Assembly: GCA_046760145.1 (NCBI GenBank)
Contig: JBHIDO010000002.1
Span: 1 to 58,086 of the forward strand
Source of the DNA: Candidatus Aenigmatarchaeota archaeon
Lineage (GTDB): Archaea > Aenigmatarchaeota > Aenigmatarchaeia > Aenigmatarchaeales > Aenigmatarchaeaceae
Direction of reading: 5' to 3'
Length of the DNA: 58,086 bases
The translations under genes were made by a program, and so were the position numbers. The notes beneath the pieces are model-generated. The model worked only from the letters and a program-made list of their open reading frames with translations. It did no database searches and was not told where the DNA came from. Position 1 is the stretch's first letter. Every line of letters starts with the position of its first letter. Positions 6,105 through 32,411 of the stretch are shown here, one piece after another.

Positions 6105-6148
6105 TCCTTTCTTTAATTCTAAATTGGGCCCATAGCTCAGTCTGGTAG

Positions 6149-6822
6149 AAAGGAGGAACAAAAATGATTAATAAAGATGTAGCAGAATTGGTTGGCGTAC
6201 ATCTGGGAGATGGACGTATGTCCCATTATTTTGCTAGATCTGAGGATATCTTTAGATTTGAAATTTTGTTCACAGGAGATTGGGACAAAGACTCTAGATA
6301 TTATAAAGAAGTTTTACAACCCATAGTAATTAGAAACTTTGGAATTAAAGGTCATATAAAACATAGAAGAGACGATGATACAGTTAGATACGTGATTAAA
6401 AGCAAGAAACTTGCAACGTTTTTTGTACGACTTGAAATACCTGTTGGGAAAAAAGCAGAGATATGTAAAATACCCTCTGAAGTAATTTGTGACATAGATT
6501 TATCTATCGCTTGTATTAGAGGTATTTTCAATAGTGACGGCAGTATTTATAGAAGATATAATAAACGTTATAAAAATACGCCTGAAGACTATTACAAATA
6601 TGCAGTTGTACAGTTCAAAATGAAAAGCAAAGATTTGATTAAGCAAATAAAAGACGTTTTGAATAGCCTCCATATTAGAACAACTAAAATAAGCAGAAAC
6701 TGTAATAGTTGGGTATTAAGAATAACGCATCAGAAATCTATTGACATCTTTTTTGATTTATTTAAAATAAACCACAATTATCACTTGAAAAGGTATAATG
6801 ATATTCGTTCCTCTTTGCCAAA
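6149..6822 (+). mobile_element. ORF-bearing bulge-helix-bulge (BHB) intron of tRNA-Lys(CUU)
   Basis: A 10-bp intron helix pairs AAGGAGGAAC (6150-6159) with GTTCCTCTTT (6807-6816). A 4-bp central helix pairs TGGT (6143-6146) with GCCA (6817-6820). It is flanked by 3-nt bulges AG|A (6147-6149) and AA|A (6821-6823). The exon-side outer helix is weak. Confidence 0.8.
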
Positions 6823-6838
6823 AGCAACTGGCTCTTAA
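6164..6838 (+). CDS. Double-motif LAGLIDADG homing endonuclease-like protein (intron-encoded)
   Basis: Motif 1 is LVGVHLGDGRM and motif 2 is CIRGIFNSDGSIY. A GGAGG SD lies 8 nt upstream of the ATG. The last 5 codons and the TAA lie in the 3' exon; the TAA is anticodon-loop positions 36-38. Confidence 0.85.
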   Translation: MINKDVAELVGVHLGDGRMSHYFARSEDIFRFEILFTGDWDKDSRYYKEVLQPIVIRNFGIKGHIKHRRDDDTVRYVIKSKKLATFFVRLEIPVGKKAEICKIPSEVICDIDLSIACIRGIFNSDGSIYRRYNKRYKNTPEDYYKYAVVQFKMKSKDLIKQIKDVLNSLHIRTTKISRNCNSWVLRITHQKSIDIFFDLFKINHNYHLKRYNDIRSSLPKATGS

Positions 6839-6909
6839 CCAGTAGGTCGCGGGTTCGAATCCCGTTGGGCCCACCAATCTTTTTAAAGAACATTCAACAT
6901 AATTTAGTT

Positions 6910-26406: not shown

Positions 26407-26453
26407 AAAAACACTTGGTGCGGCCGCTGGGATTTGAACCCAGGTCATCAGCT

Positions 26454-26467
26454 TTCTTCATAGTCTA
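26454..26467 (-). other. tRNA-Gly intron 2 (14 nt, canonical 37/38)
   Basis: TAGACTATGAAGAA. The central helix pairs CTTC (positions 32-35) with GAAG, and the bulges are CA|T and AA|A. Confidence 0.8.
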
Positions 26468-26475
26468 TGGAAGGC

Positions 26476-26492
26476 TTACCCACATAAATGTT
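26476..26492 (-). other. tRNA-Gly intron 1 (17 nt, position 29/30)
   Basis: AACATTTATGTGGGTAA. The central helix pairs ACCT with GGGT, the bulges are CA|A and AA|G, and 3-bp helices lie on both sides. Confidence 0.8.
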
Positions 26493-26508
26493 TGAGGTCC
26501 TAACCAGA

Positions 26509-27360
26509 CTAGACTACGGCCGCATTATCAAATAATTTCAATAGTTTCTCTATTTCTTGATTATTGAACATTGCTAGTGCCCAAGAGTTCATAGTTCTAT
26601 CTGGATATATTTTAGCTTTGATATTTGCCTTATTTAAGATATCAAGAACGTCCTTTAAAAGTATTTTAGTACTCTGTTTTATTGCTAGTGTTCTTCTACC
26701 ATCTTTACGCATACTTAATGAACCATCAGAATCGTAAAGACCACGTATAAAATTTATCTGAAGTAATAGTGGAGCATCTTTTATAATTTTCGGAACTCGT
26801 ATATTATTCTTTTTCTTTCCTTCTGGTAAATCAAATACATACATCAAAAATTGTTTAATAGGAATTGAGGTAAAGGATAGAACAGAATAATTCCTGTAGT
26901 TTATAATTTTAGATTCAACATTGAAGGTATTATCAACTATAGTTTTTATTACTCTTAAATCTTTACTTGATATTGTAATAGTAGCTCTTTCAGTTGTAAT
27001 TCCACCATCACCAATAATAACACCTATTAAGTAAGCTAATTTATTATTTAATCTTCTTGGTAATTGTATTATTTTACCATTTCTAGAAGAAAATCCACTC
27101 ATTATTTTGTATGCTTCATCAATATATTTTGTATTTGATAGTCTTTTACATAAATAAATAAAATTTCTAATTGAAATTGGAGTAGATTTCTTCCATTTGT
27201 AAATAAGTGATTTATGTACACTAAGTTCTTTAGATAAATCTGAAATAGAAATTTTTAACTTTAACATTTCTAAGATTTCAGAAACTAGAGATGTTATCCC
27301 ATGAATGTAAATATTTTGATTTGTTTTTCCTAGTTTTATTAAATAATTTCTTATTTCCAT
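26509..27360 (-). CDS. LAGLIDADG homing endonuclease-like protein with an N-terminal HTH extension
   Basis: HTH-like ISISDLSKELSVHKSLIYKWKK; motif 1 LIGVIIGDGGI; motif 2 FIRGLYDSDGSL. The last 5 codons and the TAG (GCG GCC GTA GTC TAG) are positions 1-15 of tRNA-Gly. Confidence 0.85.
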   Translation of the reverse strand: MEIRNYLIKLGKTNQNIYIHGITSLVSEILEMLKLKISISDLSKELSVHKSLIYKWKKSTPISIRNFIYLCKRLSNTKYIDEAYKIMSGFSSRNGKIIQLPRRLNNKLAYLIGVIIGDGGITTERATITISSKDLRVIKTIVDNTFNVESKIINYRNYSVLSFTSIPIKQFLMYVFDLPEGKKKNNIRVPKIIKDAPLLLQINFIRGLYDSDGSLSMRKDGRRTLAIKQSTKILLKDVLDILNKANIKAKIYPDRTMNSWALAMFNNQEIEKLLKLFDNAAVV

Positions 27361-27406
27361 AATAATTCACCTAGACTGGTGCATAAGATAATTAAACTAG
27401 AATTAT

Positions 27407-27802
27407 TTAAAAAGACTCTCTTATTTTTCTAGCAATATTTTTCATTTCTTCATCAGATAATTTTTTAACATTCTCTACATTAATTGATCCTCCATGTCCA
27501 TCATTCGAAAATCTAGGAACTAACCAAATATGTGCATGTTCTACTTCTTCTCCAAATATCATCGAAACAACCCATTCTGTATTAAAAGCTTTCCTAATTG
27601 CATTTGCAATTTTACTTACAACTTCGAAATATTCTCCAACATTTGGTACATCCCAAACCCATCTATAATGCTTTTTTGGAATAACCATTGTGTGTCCTGG
27701 ATTTAATGGTCTTATATCTAGAAATGCTAAAAAATTATCACTCTCATAAACTTTATAACTAGGTATTTCTCCCTTTACAATTTTACAAAATATACAATTC
27801 AT
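27407..27802 (-). CDS. HIT family (histidine triad) nucleotide hydrolase
   Basis: CIFCKIV N-terminus, FLDIRPLNPGHTMVIPKKH, and the HAHIWLVPR histidine triad. The start is trimmed to 27802 because the upstream part of the ORF is tRNA-Trp. Confidence 0.9.
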   Translation of the reverse strand: MNCIFCKIVKGEIPSYKVYESDNFLAFLDIRPLNPGHTMVIPKKHYRWVWDVPNVGEYFEVVSKIANAIRKAFNTEWVVSMIFGEEVEHAHIWLVPRFSNDGHGGSINVENVKKLSDEEMKNIARKIRESF

Positions 27803-27851
27803 GTTATCACCAATGGTGGGGTCGCCCGGATTCGAACCGGGATCAGCTGGT

Positions 27852-27918
27852 ATCACCATGGCACCAGAGCCACATACCAACTTTTTTATCATCTTTTCAT
27901 CAAAGCTCCAGCAAAATT
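27852..27918 (-). other. tRNA-Trp intron 2 (67 nt, 37/38)
   Basis: A near-canonical BHB. CTCC (32-35) pairs with GGTG with one T-T mismatch, and the bulges are AG|A and AT|A. It contains a perfect TGATGA. Confidence 0.6.
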
Positions 27919-27953
27919 CTGGAGCCAGCCATCTTAACCTGGTTGGACCACGA

Positions 27954-27971
27954 TTCTGGTTTTAAAAAAAT
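27954..27971 (-). other. tRNA-Trp intron 1 (18 nt, position 4/5 in the acceptor stem)
   Basis: ATTTTTTTAAAACCAGAA. The central helix pairs CTGG with CCAG, and the bulges are GG|A and AA|T. The inner helix pairs TTTT with AAAA. A 7-bp outer helix pairs leader GACCATG (27978-27984) with CGTGGTC (27946-27952). Confidence 0.8.
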
Positions 27972-27989
27972 CCCCAGCATGGTCGCCCT

Positions 27990-28727
27990 TCAACGACCCC
28001 ATTTTATTAATTTATTCCTTTTATTTATATTATTAAAACCTATTTGTTCTTTATATGATTCCAAACTCTTTGTCTTTATGTCAAAAACTAAACCTTTGGT
28101 TTTATAACCGTCTTTTCTTAGATTACCATTGATTATCCAGGTTTTTGTAGTTTCTATGTTAAATCTTTTAAGCATATCCTTCATATCTTTCATAAATAAT
28201 TTTCCATTTTCTAATTTTTCTTCAATCTTATGTAATTTAAATCTTATTTTCATTCTATTTGGTTCTTTCCAAATACTACCCTCACAATCAAATGCGATTT
28301 TTAAATATAATCTAGCAAATTCTAGATTATTTTTTATCCATGTTGGAACTAAAAATGTTTGTTTTACTTTACTTCCTGTTGGAGTATCCAAAAGTTTTAG
28401 AATTCTAGAAATTGGAGCAGAAATTATTCTATATTCGTAACATGTCCCAAAATTACTTTTTATTTTTCTATATTTTCCAATTAAATTAAATTCTTTTTTA
28501 ACCAATCTTTCAATTTCTTTCAACTCAGATAATAGAGAGCTAGTAAATAGAAATGCCTTTTCAGATAAGTATAGATGCCCATTAAAAGTTAAAAATGAAA
28601 TAATCTTTACTAGATCCTCATTTCCATAAATAGGAAAATTAATTTTATATTTTTCCATTGATTTTAATGCAAATTTCTTAAGTTTATATGAATTAAGAAA
28701 TTGTGTTTTAGTTAATATTGGCTTCAT
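27990..28727 (-). CDS. LAGLIDADG homing endonuclease-like protein (first motif degenerate)
   Basis: Motif 1 is ISFLTFNGHLY, with Asn where the catalytic Asp is expected. Motif 2 is YLKIAFDCEGSIW. It shares the PTGSK...VP linker with the other three. Its stop region GGGGTCGTTGA copies the first 8 nt of mature tRNA-Trp. Confidence 0.75.
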   Translation of the reverse strand: MKPILTKTQFLNSYKLKKFALKSMEKYKINFPIYGNEDLVKIISFLTFNGHLYLSEKAFLFTSSLLSELKEIERLVKKEFNLIGKYRKIKSNFGTCYEYRIISAPISRILKLLDTPTGSKVKQTFLVPTWIKNNLEFARLYLKIAFDCEGSIWKEPNRMKIRFKLHKIEEKLENGKLFMKDMKDMLKRFNIETTKTWIINGNLRKDGYKTKGLVFDIKTKSLESYKEQIGFNNINKRNKLIKWGR

Positions 28728-28747
28728 AATTAAAAATTATGTTATCA

Positions 28748-28755
28748 AATATAAA
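28748..28755 (-). promoter_or_regulatory. TATA-like box upstream of the LAGLIDADG/tRNA-Trp gene string
   Basis: TTTATATT on the minus strand, 21-28 nt upstream of the ATG at 28727. Confidence 0.35.
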
Positions 28756-29041
28756 TAGTTGGTAGATGACCCCTTGTTTAGAATAGAATATTTGTTAGTG
28801 AAGAAATAAAAATATCTATAATGGGACATTATTCTGATAAGGGAAGTGTACCATAGTCTCAAATGGAGAAGAAGAATTTATAAAGGGAGTAAAAATTGAA
28901 AATGAAAACGATGTTAAAGACGCCGCATATGCATTAAAAATGGTGATAGAAAAAGCATTAGAAACAAAACAATATATAGAAGTTCATTAAATAATTTTAC
29001 TTAGATTCTTAGAATACATTTTCTAAATATTAATTTTATAA

Positions 29042-31629: not shown

Positions 31630-31669
31630 TTTATCACCTGGTGCCTGGGGTGGGATTTGAACCCACGAC

Positions 31670-31697
31670 TTCTAGCCTCTTTTTTGTATTTAGAGGT
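31670..31697 (-). other. tRNA(CAU) intron 3 (28 nt, 45/46 in the variable loop)
   Basis: The central helix pairs CTAG with CTAG, the bulges are AG|A and AA|G, and the intron helix pairs CCTCT with AGAGG. Removal creates the variable loop AGGTC. Confidence 0.75.
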
Positions 31698-31705
31698 CTC
31701 TAGAT

Positions 31706-31759
31706 CTCTCAGCTGACTAAGTTTTCAGTCATGCCTTAAGGTCATAACTCATAACAACT
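31706..31759 (-). other. tRNA(CAU) intron 2 (54 nt, canonical 37/38)
   Basis: The central helix pairs CTCA (32-35) with TGAG, and the bulges are TA|A and AG|A. It is flanked by the 5-bp anticodon stem CTAGA/TCTAG and the intron helix GTTG/CAGC. Confidence 0.8.
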
Positions 31760-31766
31760 TATGAGT

Positions 31767-31779
31767 TTCGCCAATTTTT
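31767..31779 (-). other. tRNA(CAU) intron 1 (13 nt, 30/31)
   Basis: AAAAATTGGCGAA. The central helix pairs CGCT with GGCG, the bulges are AG|A and AA|A, and the exon helix pairs GAG with CTC. Confidence 0.8.
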
Positions 31780-31787
31780 CTAGCGCT

Positions 31788-32411
31788 CTAACCAGCTGAG
31801 CCACCCAGGCTCATTTTTTCATTCAACCAATTTTTATATTTTGTTTGATGTTTAGGATTTATAAATCCTACCTCTTTATAAAATATTTTGGTATTTCTAT
31901 ATCCATTAAATTGTAGACGTGTGAATTTTGGATATAAACCGCCTTTCATACCAATACTTTCTAATTTTTGTTTTATTTGTTCTAATAATGGAATAGAAAT
32001 ACTTCTAAATTCTATTCTTGGATACATTATACCATTATTATTAGTAATAACTAGAGAACCATCAGTTGCAAAAATTCCGGATATAATATCTTTCTCTAAA
32101 TTATGATCGAAGAATATTTTAGGAATAGATATATTTTTCTTTTTACCAACAGGAAAGCCCAAAGATTTTATGTACTCAAAAAGTTCTTTATCAGAGAAAT
32201 TTATTTCTATTTTCCCATGTTTGGACCTTTTCTTATATACAACTTTCTTTTTTCTAATCTTAGCCAAAATTGGGATAACTATCTTGTCAAAGAAAGGTTG
32301 GTCATTATAATAATTACAGGTTATAACTATGGCTCTTGCTCTAGAATATCTAGAGAGACAACCATCACCAATTAGTATTCCATAAAGATTTGCTAAATCT
32401 TTGTTAATCAT
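31788..32411 (-). CDS. Double-motif LAGLIDADG homing endonuclease-like protein
   Basis: Motif 1 is LYGILIGDGCL and motif 2 is IISGIFATDGSL. Its N-terminus MINKDLANL parallels the intron-encoded paralog. Its last 7 codons and the TAG are positions 1-23 of the tRNA(CAU). Its start overlaps the DUF362 stop. Confidence 0.85.
   Translation of the reverse strand: MINKDLANLYGILIGDGCLSRYSRARAIVITCNYYNDQPFFDKIVIPILAKIRKKKVVYKKRSKHGKIEINFSDKELFEYIKSLGFPVGKKKNISIPKIFFDHNLEKDIISGIFATDGSLVITNNNGIMYPRIEFRSISIPLLEQIKQKLESIGMKGGLYPKFTRLQFNGYRNTKIFYKEVGFINPKHQTKYKNWLNEKMSLGGSAG

What the first reader, a model, noticed from the sequence alone, without database searches (positions are those of the whole stretch)
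27814..28773. tRNA-Trp has an acceptor-stem intron (4/5) whose BHB is built with the 5' leader, and copies of the tRNA's first 8 nt flank the upstream endonuclease gene
Reading GGGGTCG at 27994-28000 as the tRNA 5' end requires a 43-nt insertion for which I found no BHB. Starting the tRNA at 27975 instead gives a complete motif. The central helix pairs CTGG with CCAG. The bulges are GG|A and AA|T. The inner helix pairs TTTT with AAAA. A 7-bp outer helix pairs leader GACCATG with tRNA positions 6-12. Splicing then joins GGGG to TCGTGGTCC and creates the acceptor strand GGGGTCG. The same octamer also occurs unspliced at the stop codon of the LAGLIDADG ORF (GGGGTCGT, 27993-28000). It occurs again as GGGGTCAT just upstream of that ORF's TATA box (28766-28773). 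A GGGGTC hexamer is very unlikely by chance in DNA this AT-rich. This looks like a footprint of endonuclease-cassette insertion into the tRNA 5' end. Because the BHB needs the leader, splicing would have to precede RNase P cleavage.
Basis: partly seen in the sequence, partly recalled or inferred. Interest (0 to 1): 0.75.

Follow-up and report, generated by a model that had tools for sequence, protein, structure and literature searches.

The report
Endonuclease cassette inside a spliced tRNA-Trp gene
A DPANN archaeon's tryptophan tRNA gene was invaded by a homing-endonuclease-type gene, which left the gene's old 5' end stranded upstream and a working copy downstream that needs an unusual splice four bases from its start; this gives a testable lead on how archaeal tRNA introns spread.

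Summary
Both parts of the observation hold.

**The intron.** The tRNA-Trp(CCA) gene (27814-27975, minus strand) has an 18-nt intron between positions 4 and 5. Its bulge-helix-bulge (BHB) motif is built with the 5' leader. In 16 related DPANN loci the same motif sits at 3/4 or 4/5. The central helix always pairs, using nine different sequence combinations.

**The flanking copies.** Both 5'-end copies around the LAGLIDADG gene are conserved in relatives. The upstream copy is 16 nt long. In one relative it lies behind the same promoter-like sequence that precedes intact tRNA-Trp genes, so it is the original 5' end of the gene.

**Co-occurrence.** Four syntenic loci without the ORF also lack the 5' intron and the extra copies.

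**Supporting case.** The window also holds a tRNA-Lys(CUU) gene with a 674-nt BHB intron that encodes a paralogous LAGLIDADG protein. The same arrangement recurs in another genome.

**Inferred, not shown.**
- The endonuclease is or was mobile.
- The mini-intron protects the rebuilt gene from cleavage, as in collaborative homing.

**What is already known.** 3/4 tRNA introns and mobile-element relics in tRNA genes have both been described. I found no report linking LAGLIDADG genes to archaeal tRNA BHB introns.

The parts
27972..27975 (-). tRNA-Trp exon 1 (GGGG, positions 1-4)
   Evidence: Joined to exon 2 it gives GGGGTCG, the complement of CGACCCC at 27818-27824. ARAGORN accepts the spliced product.
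27954..27971 (-). 18-nt BHB intron at position 4/5 (inner hairpin UUUU-UUU-AAAA, central 3' strand CCAG, bulge AA|U)
   Evidence: Top solution of the unbiased BHB scan. The equivalent motif is present in 16 of 16 ORF-linked loci. Covariation.
27976..27984 (-). 5' leader segment needed for the BHB: GACCAUG (27978-27984) pairs with tRNA positions 6-12, and CU (27976-27977) plus G1 and G2 pair with CCAG
   Evidence: Present in the minimum-energy fold. The outer helix varies on both sides at all 7 pairs across loci.
27919..27953 (-). tRNA-Trp exon 2 (positions 5-37, ending with anticodon-loop positions 32-37, CTCCAG)
27852..27918 (-). Canonical 37/38 intron, 67 nt. It carries a UGAUGA box and CUGGAGC, which is complementary to the anticodon loop.
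   Evidence: ARAGORN in intron mode places a 67-nt intron here. Weak C/D-box snoRNA hit.
27814..27851 (-). tRNA-Trp exon 3 (position 38 to the encoded CCA)
27993..28000 (-). Copy B: GGGGTCGT, a copy of tRNA positions 1-8 lying in the last codons of the ORF
   Evidence: Matches at least 6 of 7 positions in 11 of 16 loci, 18-25 nt 5' of the functional G1 in the loci where spacing was counted by eye, in two reading frames. It cannot serve as the real 5' end.
27990..28727 (-). LAGLIDADG-type ORF, 245 aa
   Evidence: Pfam LAGLIDADG_3. AlphaFold2 model with pLDDT 92.5. Closest folds are intein endonuclease domains, I-DmoI and I-Tsp061I. Motifs LTF(D/N)GH and AFDCEGS.
28748..28755 (-). TATA-like TTTATATT, 21-28 nt before the ORF start codon
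   Evidence: Read from the sequence. Similar A/T-rich elements are present in relatives. Function not tested.
28758..28773 (-). Copy A: GGGGTCATCTACCAAC, a relic of the original tRNA-Trp positions 1-16
   Evidence: 12 of 16 matches to the mature tRNA. Its first 8 nt are identical to the 5' end of ORF-less alleles L024, L025 and L027. Conserved at -36 to -50 from the start codon in five loci, the window included (L007 carries it at -155). Shares promoter-like upstream sequence with an intact tRNA-Trp.

Best explanation
**What the locus is.** The locus is a working tRNA-Trp(CCA) gene that was rebuilt after invasion by a cassette carrying a LAGLIDADG homing-endonuclease-type gene.

**RNA level.** The precursor must carry at least 11 nt of leader. 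The leader pairs with tRNA positions 6-12 and, together with G1 and G2, with the 3' end of an 18-nt insert. This forms a canonical helix-bulge-helix-bulge-helix motif. The splicing endonuclease cuts after G4 and before U5, and the ligase joins the ends. Only then can the 7-bp acceptor stem form and RNase P remove the leader. A second, canonical 37/38 intron is also removed.

**DNA level.** The 16-nt copy upstream of the ORF is the displaced original 5' end of the gene, probably still behind the native promoter. The ORF and a replacement 5' part now lie between that relic and the rest of the tRNA.

**Inferred.** The endonuclease cuts, or once cut, ORF-less and intron-less tRNA-Trp alleles, so that repair copies the cassette in. 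The mini-intron interrupts the target in the rebuilt gene and protects it. This would be an archaeal BHB counterpart of collaborative homing.

**Shown computationally:** the motif, its covariation, the relics, and the co-occurrence of ORF and intron.

**Not shown:** splicing, endonuclease activity and mobility.
For: **BHB geometry and ranking.**

**Splicing gives a valid tRNA.**

**Recurrence.** In 16 of 16 ORF-linked loci a 13-43 nt insert sits at 3/4 or 4/5, the central helix is 4 of 4 pairs in nine sequence variants, and the acceptor stem is restored.

**Covariation.** 86% of cells are paired, against 31-44% when partners are slid. No shuffle out of 500 reaches the observed score. The central helix is 100% paired, with changes on both sides at 3 of its 4 pairs.

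**L001 discriminates the two candidate 5' ends**.

**Copy A.** It is conserved. In L002 it shares AATATATAAAAATACT...ATTTCTTACA with the region upstream of the intact tRNA-Trp in L028 and L027.

**ORF-less loci.** Four syntenic loci (L024, L025, L027, L028) have contiguous 5' ends, no intron and no copies.

**Specificity.** Strong split-acceptor BHBs occur only downstream of this ORF family among 69 tRNA-like 3' ends.

**The protein.** LAGLIDADG fold.

**Patchy, incongruent distribution.** The ORF is 68% identical to that of L001, whose host proteins are 61% (S19e) and 49% (HIT) identical. The ORF-less locus L028 is closer on host proteins, at 68% and 66%.

**Other cases in the window.**
- A paralogue lies inside a 674-nt BHB intron of tRNA-Lys, and the same arrangement recurs in L044.
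- Another paralogue, next to tRNA-Gly, is absent in L001, L002 and L024.

**RNase P in the lineage.** A relative carries an Rpr2 gene, an RNase P protein subunit.
Against: - There are no RNA data, so splicing, the order of processing and the transcription start are all inferred.
- The window's ORF has N where 14 of 15 family members have the first-motif D, so this copy may be impaired.
- The family is old and well conserved (140 clusters at E <= 1e-30), which also fits a domesticated protein.
- The cassette boundary (about position 16-17) does not coincide with the mini-intron (4/5), so the simple rule that the intron site equals the insertion site does not hold.
- Copy B is not explained by the model.
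- The 16 ORF-linked loci are related, so 16 of 16 is not 16 independent events.
- The promoter match for copy A is clear in L002 but weak in the window itself.
- Two contigs of the same strain show no presence/absence polymorphism.
- One ORF-linked locus (L004) has only a 3' tRNA fragment downstream.
Confidence: 0.7

Rival explanations
1. The LAGLIDADG protein is no longer a mobile endonuclease. It is a domesticated DNA- or RNA-binding protein, for example a WhiA-like regulator or a helper for processing the unusual precursor. It has been inherited vertically with the tRNA, and the copies are very old relics.
For: - The family is conserved down to 31-50% identity with intact motifs.
- It is large.
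- WhiA is among the fold matches, and one source names an orthologue WhiA.
- The window's copy has N49 in place of D.
- Synteny near S19e holds in four loci.
Against: - Synteny is expected anyway if a homing element always targets the same tRNA gene.
- ORF presence is patchy among close hosts, and ORF identity does not track host identity.
- A paralogue next to tRNA-Gly is present or absent among relatives.
- Four paralogues sit at four different tRNA genes in 58 kb.
- Both acidic motif residues are kept in 14 of 15 members.
Confidence: 0.2
2. The cassette arrived by site-specific integration of a larger element whose attachment site matched the tRNA 5' part, as in the Caldiarchaeum tRNA-Thr model. 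The LAGLIDADG gene is cargo or what remains of that element.
For: A direct repeat of the tRNA 5' part bounds the insert, and the rebuilt tRNA has a new intron. That is the pattern described in PMC3293823.
Against: - The insert between copy A and the tRNA is under 800 nt and holds only the LAGLIDADG ORF. There is no integrase or recombinase.
- The same small unit recurs in 16 loci.
- Only one weak hit was found on viral contigs.
Confidence: 0.06
3. The tRNA starts at 28000 (GGGGTCG) and carries a 43-nt insert at 7/8 or a neighbouring register.
For: GGGGTCG at 28000 is complementary to the acceptor 3' strand. A full-length fold pairs the two, and an Rfam tmRNA-type alignment uses that pairing.
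Against: - No BHB forms in any of the five registers.
- In L001 this copy mismatches the acceptor strand.
- In L014, L015, L018, L019 and L020 the copy is degenerate while the split solution stays perfect.
Confidence: 0.03
4. The locus is a decaying, non-functional tRNA gene, and the BHB and the copies are accidental.
For: ARAGORN in default mode and Rfam at its gathering threshold do not call the gene. Only 58 kb of the genome is visible.
Against: - The acceptor stem is restored perfectly in 16 loci, with compensatory changes.
- The mature sequence is a clean cloverleaf.
- Chance is excluded for both copies.
Confidence: 0.03

Closest known systems
Acceptor-stem (3/4) BHB introns of Thermoproteales tRNAs (Sugahara et al. 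2008, as cited in PMC4090602)
   Same: A short BHB intron only three or four bases from the tRNA 5' end, at a non-canonical position.
   Different: Here the lineage is DPANN (Woesearchaeota/Nanoarchaeota). The position is 4/5 in the window and L001 and 3/4 in the other loci. The intron is strictly linked to an adjacent LAGLIDADG gene and to relic 5' copies. I could not read the 2008 paper to check whether leader pairing was described there.
Split and permuted tRNA genes whose BHB is formed by leader and trailer sequences (Nanoarchaeum equitans, Cyanidioschyzon merolae, Thermofilum pendens; PMC4090602, PMC4033280)
   Same: The splicing motif is built from sequence outside the mature tRNA, so end processing by RNase P has to follow splicing.
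   Different: Here the parts are in cis and in the normal order, and the 5' exon is only 3-4 nt.
Caldiarchaeum subterraneum tRNA-Thr(GGU) heterogeneity (Sugahara et al. 2012, PMC3293823)
   Same: A 5' fragment of the tRNA lies upstream of an inserted element, and the rebuilt tRNA downstream has an extra intron. That paper proposes that the added intron blocks further invasion.
   Different: That element is 1.8 kb, encodes a recombinase, and is thought to integrate by site-specific recombination. Here the only gene is a LAGLIDADG endonuclease homologue, which points to repair-based homing.
Collaborative homing: the free-standing endonuclease F-CphI beside the intron-containing psbA gene of cyanophage S-PM2 (Zeng, Bonocora and Shub 2009, as described in PMC6083498)
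   Same: A free-standing endonuclease gene lies next to a gene whose intron would shield it from the endonuclease. Intron and endonuclease gene co-occur.
   Different: That case involves a self-splicing group I intron, a phage and an Endo VII-type enzyme, and cleavage was demonstrated. Here the intron is a protein-spliced BHB intron in a cellular tRNA gene and cleavage is untested.
LAGLIDADG endonucleases encoded in archaeal rRNA BHB introns (I-DmoI, I-Tsp061I)
   Same: The same protein fold. In the window's tRNA-Lys gene the ORF lies inside a BHB intron, as it does in those rRNA introns.
   Different: The host gene is a tRNA. I found no report of an ORF-bearing BHB intron in a tRNA gene. In the tRNA-Trp locus the ORF lies outside the intron.

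Membership tests
Archaeal BHB (hBHBh') tRNA intron | Two 3-nt bulges on opposite strands separated by a 4-bp helix | tested here: met
   CUGG/CCAG with bulges GG|A and AA|U. The central helix is 4 of 4 pairs in all 16 loci.
Archaeal BHB (hBHBh') tRNA intron | Flanking outer and inner helices | tested here: met
   Outer helix 7 bp and inner helix 4 bp in the window. Across loci 79% and 85% of cells are paired.
Archaeal BHB (hBHBh') tRNA intron | Excision restores a canonical cloverleaf | tested here: met
   ARAGORN calls a 77-nt tRNA-Trp(cca) with a 7-bp acceptor stem.
Archaeal BHB (hBHBh') tRNA intron | Structure kept by compensatory change in relatives | tested here: met
   13 of 14 pairs show changes on both sides, and 0 of 500 shuffles reach the observed score. 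Caveat: the rows were put in register by structure, although each splice site was fixed independently by the requirement to restore the acceptor stem.
Archaeal BHB (hBHBh') tRNA intron | Cleavage by the splicing endonuclease and ligation in vivo | not testable with these tools
   Needs RNA sequencing or an in vitro assay. A relative encodes a 189-aa tRNA intron endonuclease.
Active LAGLIDADG homing endonuclease gene | Two-domain LAGLIDADG fold with two motifs | tested here: met
Active LAGLIDADG homing endonuclease gene | An acidic catalytic residue in each motif | tested here: inconclusive
   Both are present in 14 of 15 members. The window's copy has N49 in motif 1 and keeps E149 in motif 2.
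Active LAGLIDADG homing endonuclease gene | Presence/absence at a conserved target among related genomes | tested here: met
   ORF-linked loci compared with four ORF-less syntenic loci. The distribution does not track host relatedness.
Active LAGLIDADG homing endonuclease gene | Site-specific cleavage of the allele that lacks the gene | not testable with these tools
   Needs purified protein and synthetic target DNA.
Collaborative homing (free-standing endonuclease plus protective intron) | [quoted passage not shown] | tested here: met
   16 of 16 loci with the ORF have the 5' intron and 0 of 4 without the ORF have it. There are no strong split-acceptor BHBs elsewhere.
Collaborative homing (free-standing endonuclease plus protective intron) | The enzyme cuts the intron-less allele at the intron site, and the intron blocks cutting | not testable with these tools
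   Inference only.
Integrase-mediated integration into a tRNA gene (SSV/pNOB8 type) | Direct repeat of part of the tRNA at both borders of the insert | tested here: met
   Copy A compared with the functional 5' part, 12 of 16 matches.
Integrase-mediated integration into a tRNA gene (SSV/pNOB8 type) | An integrase or recombinase gene within the insert | tested here: not met
   The only ORF between the repeats is the LAGLIDADG gene.
ORF-bearing BHB intron (applies to tRNA-Lys, 6126-6876) | A BHB at the intron borders, the ORF inside, and a valid spliced product | tested here: met
   UGGU/GCCA central helix, bulges AG|A and AA|A, a 10-bp inner helix, and a spliced tRNA-Lys(ctt). The same architecture is present in L044. 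The outer helix is weak (1 bp).

The most novel reading that the evidence does not exclude
In DPANN archaea, LAGLIDADG homing endonuclease genes and BHB introns of tRNA genes form mobile units. The endonuclease gene lies either inside the intron (tRNA-Lys here) or beside a mini-intron that shields the target (tRNA-Trp and tRNA-Pro). Homing of these units would be a DNA-level mechanism for gain of tRNA introns. It would also be a route to fragmented tRNA genes, since it leaves stranded 5' exons behind their own promoters, as a split tRNA gene would have.
Probability: 0.4. Interest if true: 0.88.

Novelty: new variant of a known kind. Interest (0 to 1): 0.78.

Why it matters
How protein-spliced (BHB) introns enter and move between archaeal tRNA genes is an open question. 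[quoted passage not shown] The main ideas so far are protection against integrating elements and one population-level case involving a recombinase element.

These loci tie tRNA BHB introns to a well-understood class of mobile gene. They also offer a series of states:
- the ORF inside the intron (tRNA-Lys);
- the ORF beside a mini-intron, with a stranded 5' exon upstream (tRNA-Trp);
- ORF-less and intron-less alleles in close relatives.

That makes the question testable with one protein, a few synthetic DNA targets and small-RNA sequencing.

The result is also relevant to the origin of split tRNA genes in the same superphylum. On the practical side, standard tRNA finders miss such genes and gene callers run ORFs through them.

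Tried and rejected
- **Default tRNA finders.** ARAGORN in default mode and Rfam at its gathering threshold miss the gene. Rfam at a relaxed E-value gave only a tmRNA-type alignment that pairs 28000-27994 with the 3' end.
- **Starting the tRNA at 28000.** Five registers were tested and none gives a BHB.
- **Copy A as a live 5' exon.** The bases before its GGGG are ACAA, so a central helix with CCAG cannot form (read). Its positions 10-11 are changed in all Trp-group loci, which would break the D-stem.
- **Protein coding as the reason copy B is conserved.** Rejected, because two different reading frames are used.
- **First MAFFT alignment of the motif strings.** It shifted the two 4/5 rows by one column. 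I redid it with constant anchor blocks.
- **Viral contigs as a vector.** Only one weak hit.
- **Strain-level presence/absence.** Tried by exact look-up of the downstream HIT protein. The 131-aa form is not on record. The 161-aa form gave two contigs of the same strain with the same arrangement.
- **A rule that the relic ends where the mini-intron sits.** It holds in L043 (tRNA-Lys, 30/31) but not for tRNA-Trp (relic ends at 16-17, intron at 4/5) or for tRNA-Gly (relic ends at 18-19, introns at 29/30 and 37/38).
- **The promoter scan tool.** Not used, because it models bacterial sigma-70 sites.
Full report
**1. Setting**

The window is 29% G+C and archaeal, with S19e, 5S rRNA and many intron-bearing tRNAs. 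Relatives found through the ORF are DPANN archaea labelled Woesearchaeota, Nanoarchaeota or Nanoarchaeia, plus one labelled Micrarchaeota. Everything at this locus lies on the minus strand.

**2. Checking the observation**

The tRNA body is clear:
- T arm CCCGG-TTCGAAT-CCGGG
- acceptor 3' strand CGACCCC
- discriminator A
- encoded CCA ending at 27814
- anticodon loop CTCCAG(A), split by a 67-nt canonical intron

ARAGORN in default mode and Rfam at its gathering threshold miss the gene.

There are two candidate 5' ends: GGGGTCG at 28000, and GGGG at 27975 followed by an 18-nt insert and then TCG.
- I scanned all splice-site pairs using helix-bulge-helix geometry alone.
- The outer and central helices appear in the minimum-energy fold.
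- I tested the five registers that would use the 28000 copy. None gives a BHB.
- In-silico removal of both introns gives a 77-nt tRNA-Trp(CCA) with a full acceptor stem.

**3. Comparative test of the intron**

The ORF has orthologues at 31-68% identity. I collected 16 distinct loci in which a member of this family is followed by a tRNA.

In all 16:
- the tRNA (Trp-CCA, or Pro-UGG or Pro-GGG) has a 13-43 nt insert after position 3, or after position 4 in the window and L001;
- the bulges have the form GG|N and (A/U)(A/U)|N;
- the central helix is a perfect 4 bp;
- splicing restores a 7-bp acceptor stem.

The central helix appears in nine sequence variants: CUGG/CCAG, CACG/CGUG, UGUG/CACA, AGCG/CGCU, AAUG/CAUU, AGUG/CGCU, CAUG/CAUG, UAUG/CAUA and GAUG/CAUU.

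The formal pair count gave:
- 86% of cells paired, against 31-44% when partners are slid by 1-3 columns;
- 13 of 14 pairs with changes on both sides;
- 0 of 500 shuffles reaching the observed score.

Locus L001 separates the two candidate 5' ends. Its acceptor 3' strand is TAACCCC. The split solution GGGG+TTA pairs perfectly, while the ORF-end copy GGGGTCA does not.

The intron and its dependence on the leader are therefore well supported. A relative encodes an RNase P protein subunit (Rpr2) and another encodes a 189-aa splicing endonuclease.

The idea that splicing comes before RNase P cleavage follows from the structure:
- before splicing, only 3-4 bp of acceptor stem can form;
- after RNase P cleavage, the BHB could no longer form.

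This order has not been observed directly.

**4. The two extra copies**

*Copy B* (27993-28000, at the end of the ORF):
- It matches at least 6 of 7 acceptor positions in 11 of 16 loci.
- In the loci where I counted the spacing by eye, it lies 18-25 nt upstream of the functional G1.
- It is read in two different frames (W-G-R-stop in the window, N-G-V-E-stop in L002), so coding does not explain it.

- It is 16 nt long, with 12 of 16 matches to the mature tRNA.
- In five loci, the window included, it lies 36-50 nt before the ORF start codon (L007 carries it at -155).
- All Trp-group copies share the same change at positions 10-11 (GT to TA), which points to a single origin.

The hexamer count alone would not have been convincing.

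**5. What the copies are**

I anchored a metagenome scan on S19e, which lies 1-2 kb downstream in four loci. It returned 20 syntenic loci, none of which contains a member of this ORF family. Positive controls for the search worked.

Four of these loci (L024, L025, L027, L028) keep the order tRNA-Trp, HIT, tRNA-Gly, S19e. In them:
- there is no ORF, no 5' intron and no extra copies;
- the tRNA starts contiguously (GGGGTCATGGTCCAACC... or GGGGTCGTCGTCTAACC...).

Two further observations place copy A:
- The sequence upstream of copy A in L002 (AATATATAAAAATACT...ATTTCTTACA) is the same as that upstream of the intact tRNA-Trp in L028 and L027.
- The window's copy A (GGGGTCAT) is identical over 8 nt to the 5' ends of L024, L025 and L027. 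The window's functional copy reads GGGGTCGT.

Copy A is therefore the original 5' end of the gene, probably still behind the native promoter. The ORF and a replacement 5' part lie inside the old gene from about position 17.

A generic scan of about 280 kb, covering 69 tRNA-like 3' ends, found strong split-acceptor BHBs only downstream of this ORF family.

**6. The protein**

| Evidence | Result |
|---|---|
| Pfam | LAGLIDADG_3 |
| Profile search of solved structures | V-ATPase intein endonuclease domains |
| AlphaFold2 model | mean pLDDT 92.5 |
| Closest folds | TliVMA and PI-PfuI intein endonucleases, I-DmoI, I-Tsp061I; WhiA also matches |
| Conserved motifs | LTFDGH and AFDCEGS; the window's copy alone has N for the first D |
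| Family size | 140 clusters at E <= 1e-30, 855 at E <= 1e-10 |
| Viral contigs | essentially absent |

**7. Hints of mobility**

The ORF's closest relative (L001, 68% identity) is in a host whose S19e and HIT are 61% and 49% identical to the window's. The ORF-less locus L028 is closer on both, at 68% and 66%. This rests on two short proteins and is only suggestive.

Paralogues sit at four different tRNA genes in this one window.
- **tRNA-Gly.** The ORF next to tRNA-Gly (26509-27360) is absent from L001, L002 and L024. It has its own degenerate 5' relic at 27368-27382.
- **tRNA-Lys(CUU), the most informative case.**
  - Layout: exon 1 is 6126-6148, a 674-nt intron spans 6149-6822 and holds almost the whole ORF (6164-6838), and exon 2 is 6823-6876.
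  - Its BHB has a UGGU/GCCA central helix, bulges AG|A and AA|A, and a 10-bp inner helix.
  - The spliced product is a clean tRNA-Lys.
  - The same architecture occurs in a different genome at 41% protein identity (L044).
- **L043.** Here the orthologue lies upstream of a complete tRNA-Lys that has a mini-intron at 30/31, with a degenerate relic upstream.

**8. Mechanism**

*Shown computationally:*
- the leader-dependent BHB;
- restoration of the tRNA by splicing;
- the relic status of copy A;
- co-occurrence of the ORF and the 5' intron.

*Inferred from what is known of the families:*
- The splicing endonuclease and ligase remove the insert, and RNase P then trims the leader.
- The LAGLIDADG protein cuts, or once cut, ORF-less and intron-less alleles, and repair copies the cassette in.
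- The mini-intron interrupts the target in the rebuilt gene. This matches the logic of collaborative homing (PMC6083498). It also matches the suggestion that an added intron protects an integrated element (PMC3293823).

*Weak points:*
- The cassette boundary and the intron position differ.
- Copy B has no assigned role. It may be an earlier 5' end, or the start region of the precursor transcript; A/T-rich elements lie about 20-30 nt upstream of it in several loci.
- The window's copy may be catalytically impaired.

**9. Comparison with what is known**

- 3/4 introns are known in Thermoproteales.
- BHBs built with leader or trailer sequence are known from split and permuted tRNAs.
- A stranded 5' fragment plus a new intron next to a mobile element is known from Caldiarchaeum, where the element encodes a recombinase.
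- LAGLIDADG genes inside BHB introns are known for rRNA genes.

Five full-text searches found no report of LAGLIDADG genes inside or beside archaeal tRNA BHB introns. The library covers open-access papers only, so this is not proof of absence.

**10. Verdict**

I file it as a new variant of known kinds. Interest is high, because it links tRNA BHB introns to a homing-endonuclease family and makes the mechanism of intron gain testable.

Noticed in passing
window 6126-6876 (+): A tRNA-Lys(CUU) gene is split at position 22/23 by a 674-nt BHB intron (6149-6822) that holds a 224-aa LAGLIDADG ORF (6164-6838). The ORF's stop codon is U36-A37-A38 of the anticodon loop. An SD-like AAGGAGG forms part of the 10-bp inner helix. 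The same architecture is present in L044.
   Followed up: yes
window 26419-27382 (-): A LAGLIDADG ORF (26509-27360) reads 15 nt into tRNA-Gly(UCC) (26419-26523), which has introns at 29/30 (26476-26492) and 37/38 (26454-26467). A degenerate tRNA-Gly 5' relic, GCACCAGTCTAGGTG, lies at 27368-27382. The ORF is absent from L001 (intron-less tRNA-Gly), from L002 (which has introns) and from L024.
   Followed up: partly
window 31642-32411 (-): A third LAGLIDADG ORF (31788-32411) reads 23 nt into a tRNA (31642-31810). That tRNA can be assembled into a CAU-anticodon tRNA after removing about 95 nt in three inserts. No upstream relic is visible, because the ORF abuts a DUF362 gene.
   Followed up: partly
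window 27852-27918 (-): The canonical tRNA-Trp intron carries UGAUGA and GAUGAU boxes and CUGGAGC, which is complementary to the anticodon loop (GCUCCAG). This resembles the known C/D-box guide in archaeal tRNA-Trp introns (from my own knowledge). In the simple register its BHB central helix pairs at only 3 of 4 positions, by inspection of the sequence, both here and in L001 and L024.
   Followed up: no
window 27407-27892 (-); L007 3001-3903; L009 3001-3768: Gene callers run ORFs through tRNA genes. The HIT gene is on record as 161 aa starting inside the tRNA-Trp. Orthologous LAGLIDADG ORFs are called at 300 aa and 255 aa by reading through the tRNA or its leader.
   Followed up: no
L004 3745-3800: Here the orthologous ORF is followed only by a 3' tRNA piece (T arm with a 14-nt T-loop insert and acceptor strand CAGCCCC), then by an intact tRNA-Pro(UGG). 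This may be a decayed or a split tRNA gene. A GGGGCTA element still lies upstream of the ORF.
   Followed up: no
L043 490-1460: The orthologue of the tRNA-Lys intron ORF lies upstream of a complete tRNA-Lys(CUU) that has a 20-nt BHB intron at 30/31. The review PMC4090602 gives 30/31 as the position where the tRNA-Lys(CUU) gene of Nanoarchaeum equitans is split. A relic (positions 7-14 and 26-30) lies upstream of the ORF and ends at position 30.
   Followed up: partly
L014-L017 and L020, 30-80 nt upstream of the ORF start: In the tRNA-Pro group the ORF is preceded not by a tRNA 5' copy but by one or two copies of a conserved CACTGG(A/T)CA motif, just upstream of a TATA-like box. This may be a regulator binding site.
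   Followed up: no
L010 3760-3900: Downstream of the ORF-linked tRNA-Pro there is a second copy of the tRNA 3' end (TAGCCCCACTT) and repeated hairpins containing TTCCTAACG, a sequence that also occurs in the 3/4 intron.
   Followed up: no
window, whole: ARAGORN in default mode finds 3 tRNA genes. Rfam finds 8 tRNA matches at its gathering threshold, and at least 2 more genes (Trp, Lys) are only partly detected or missed. Most of the tRNA genes are interrupted and several carry more than one intron.
   Followed up: partly
window 28581-28583 (-), residue 49 of the ORF: The window's endonuclease homologue has N where 14 of 15 family members have the first-motif aspartate. This copy may be a nickase or inactive.
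   Followed up: no
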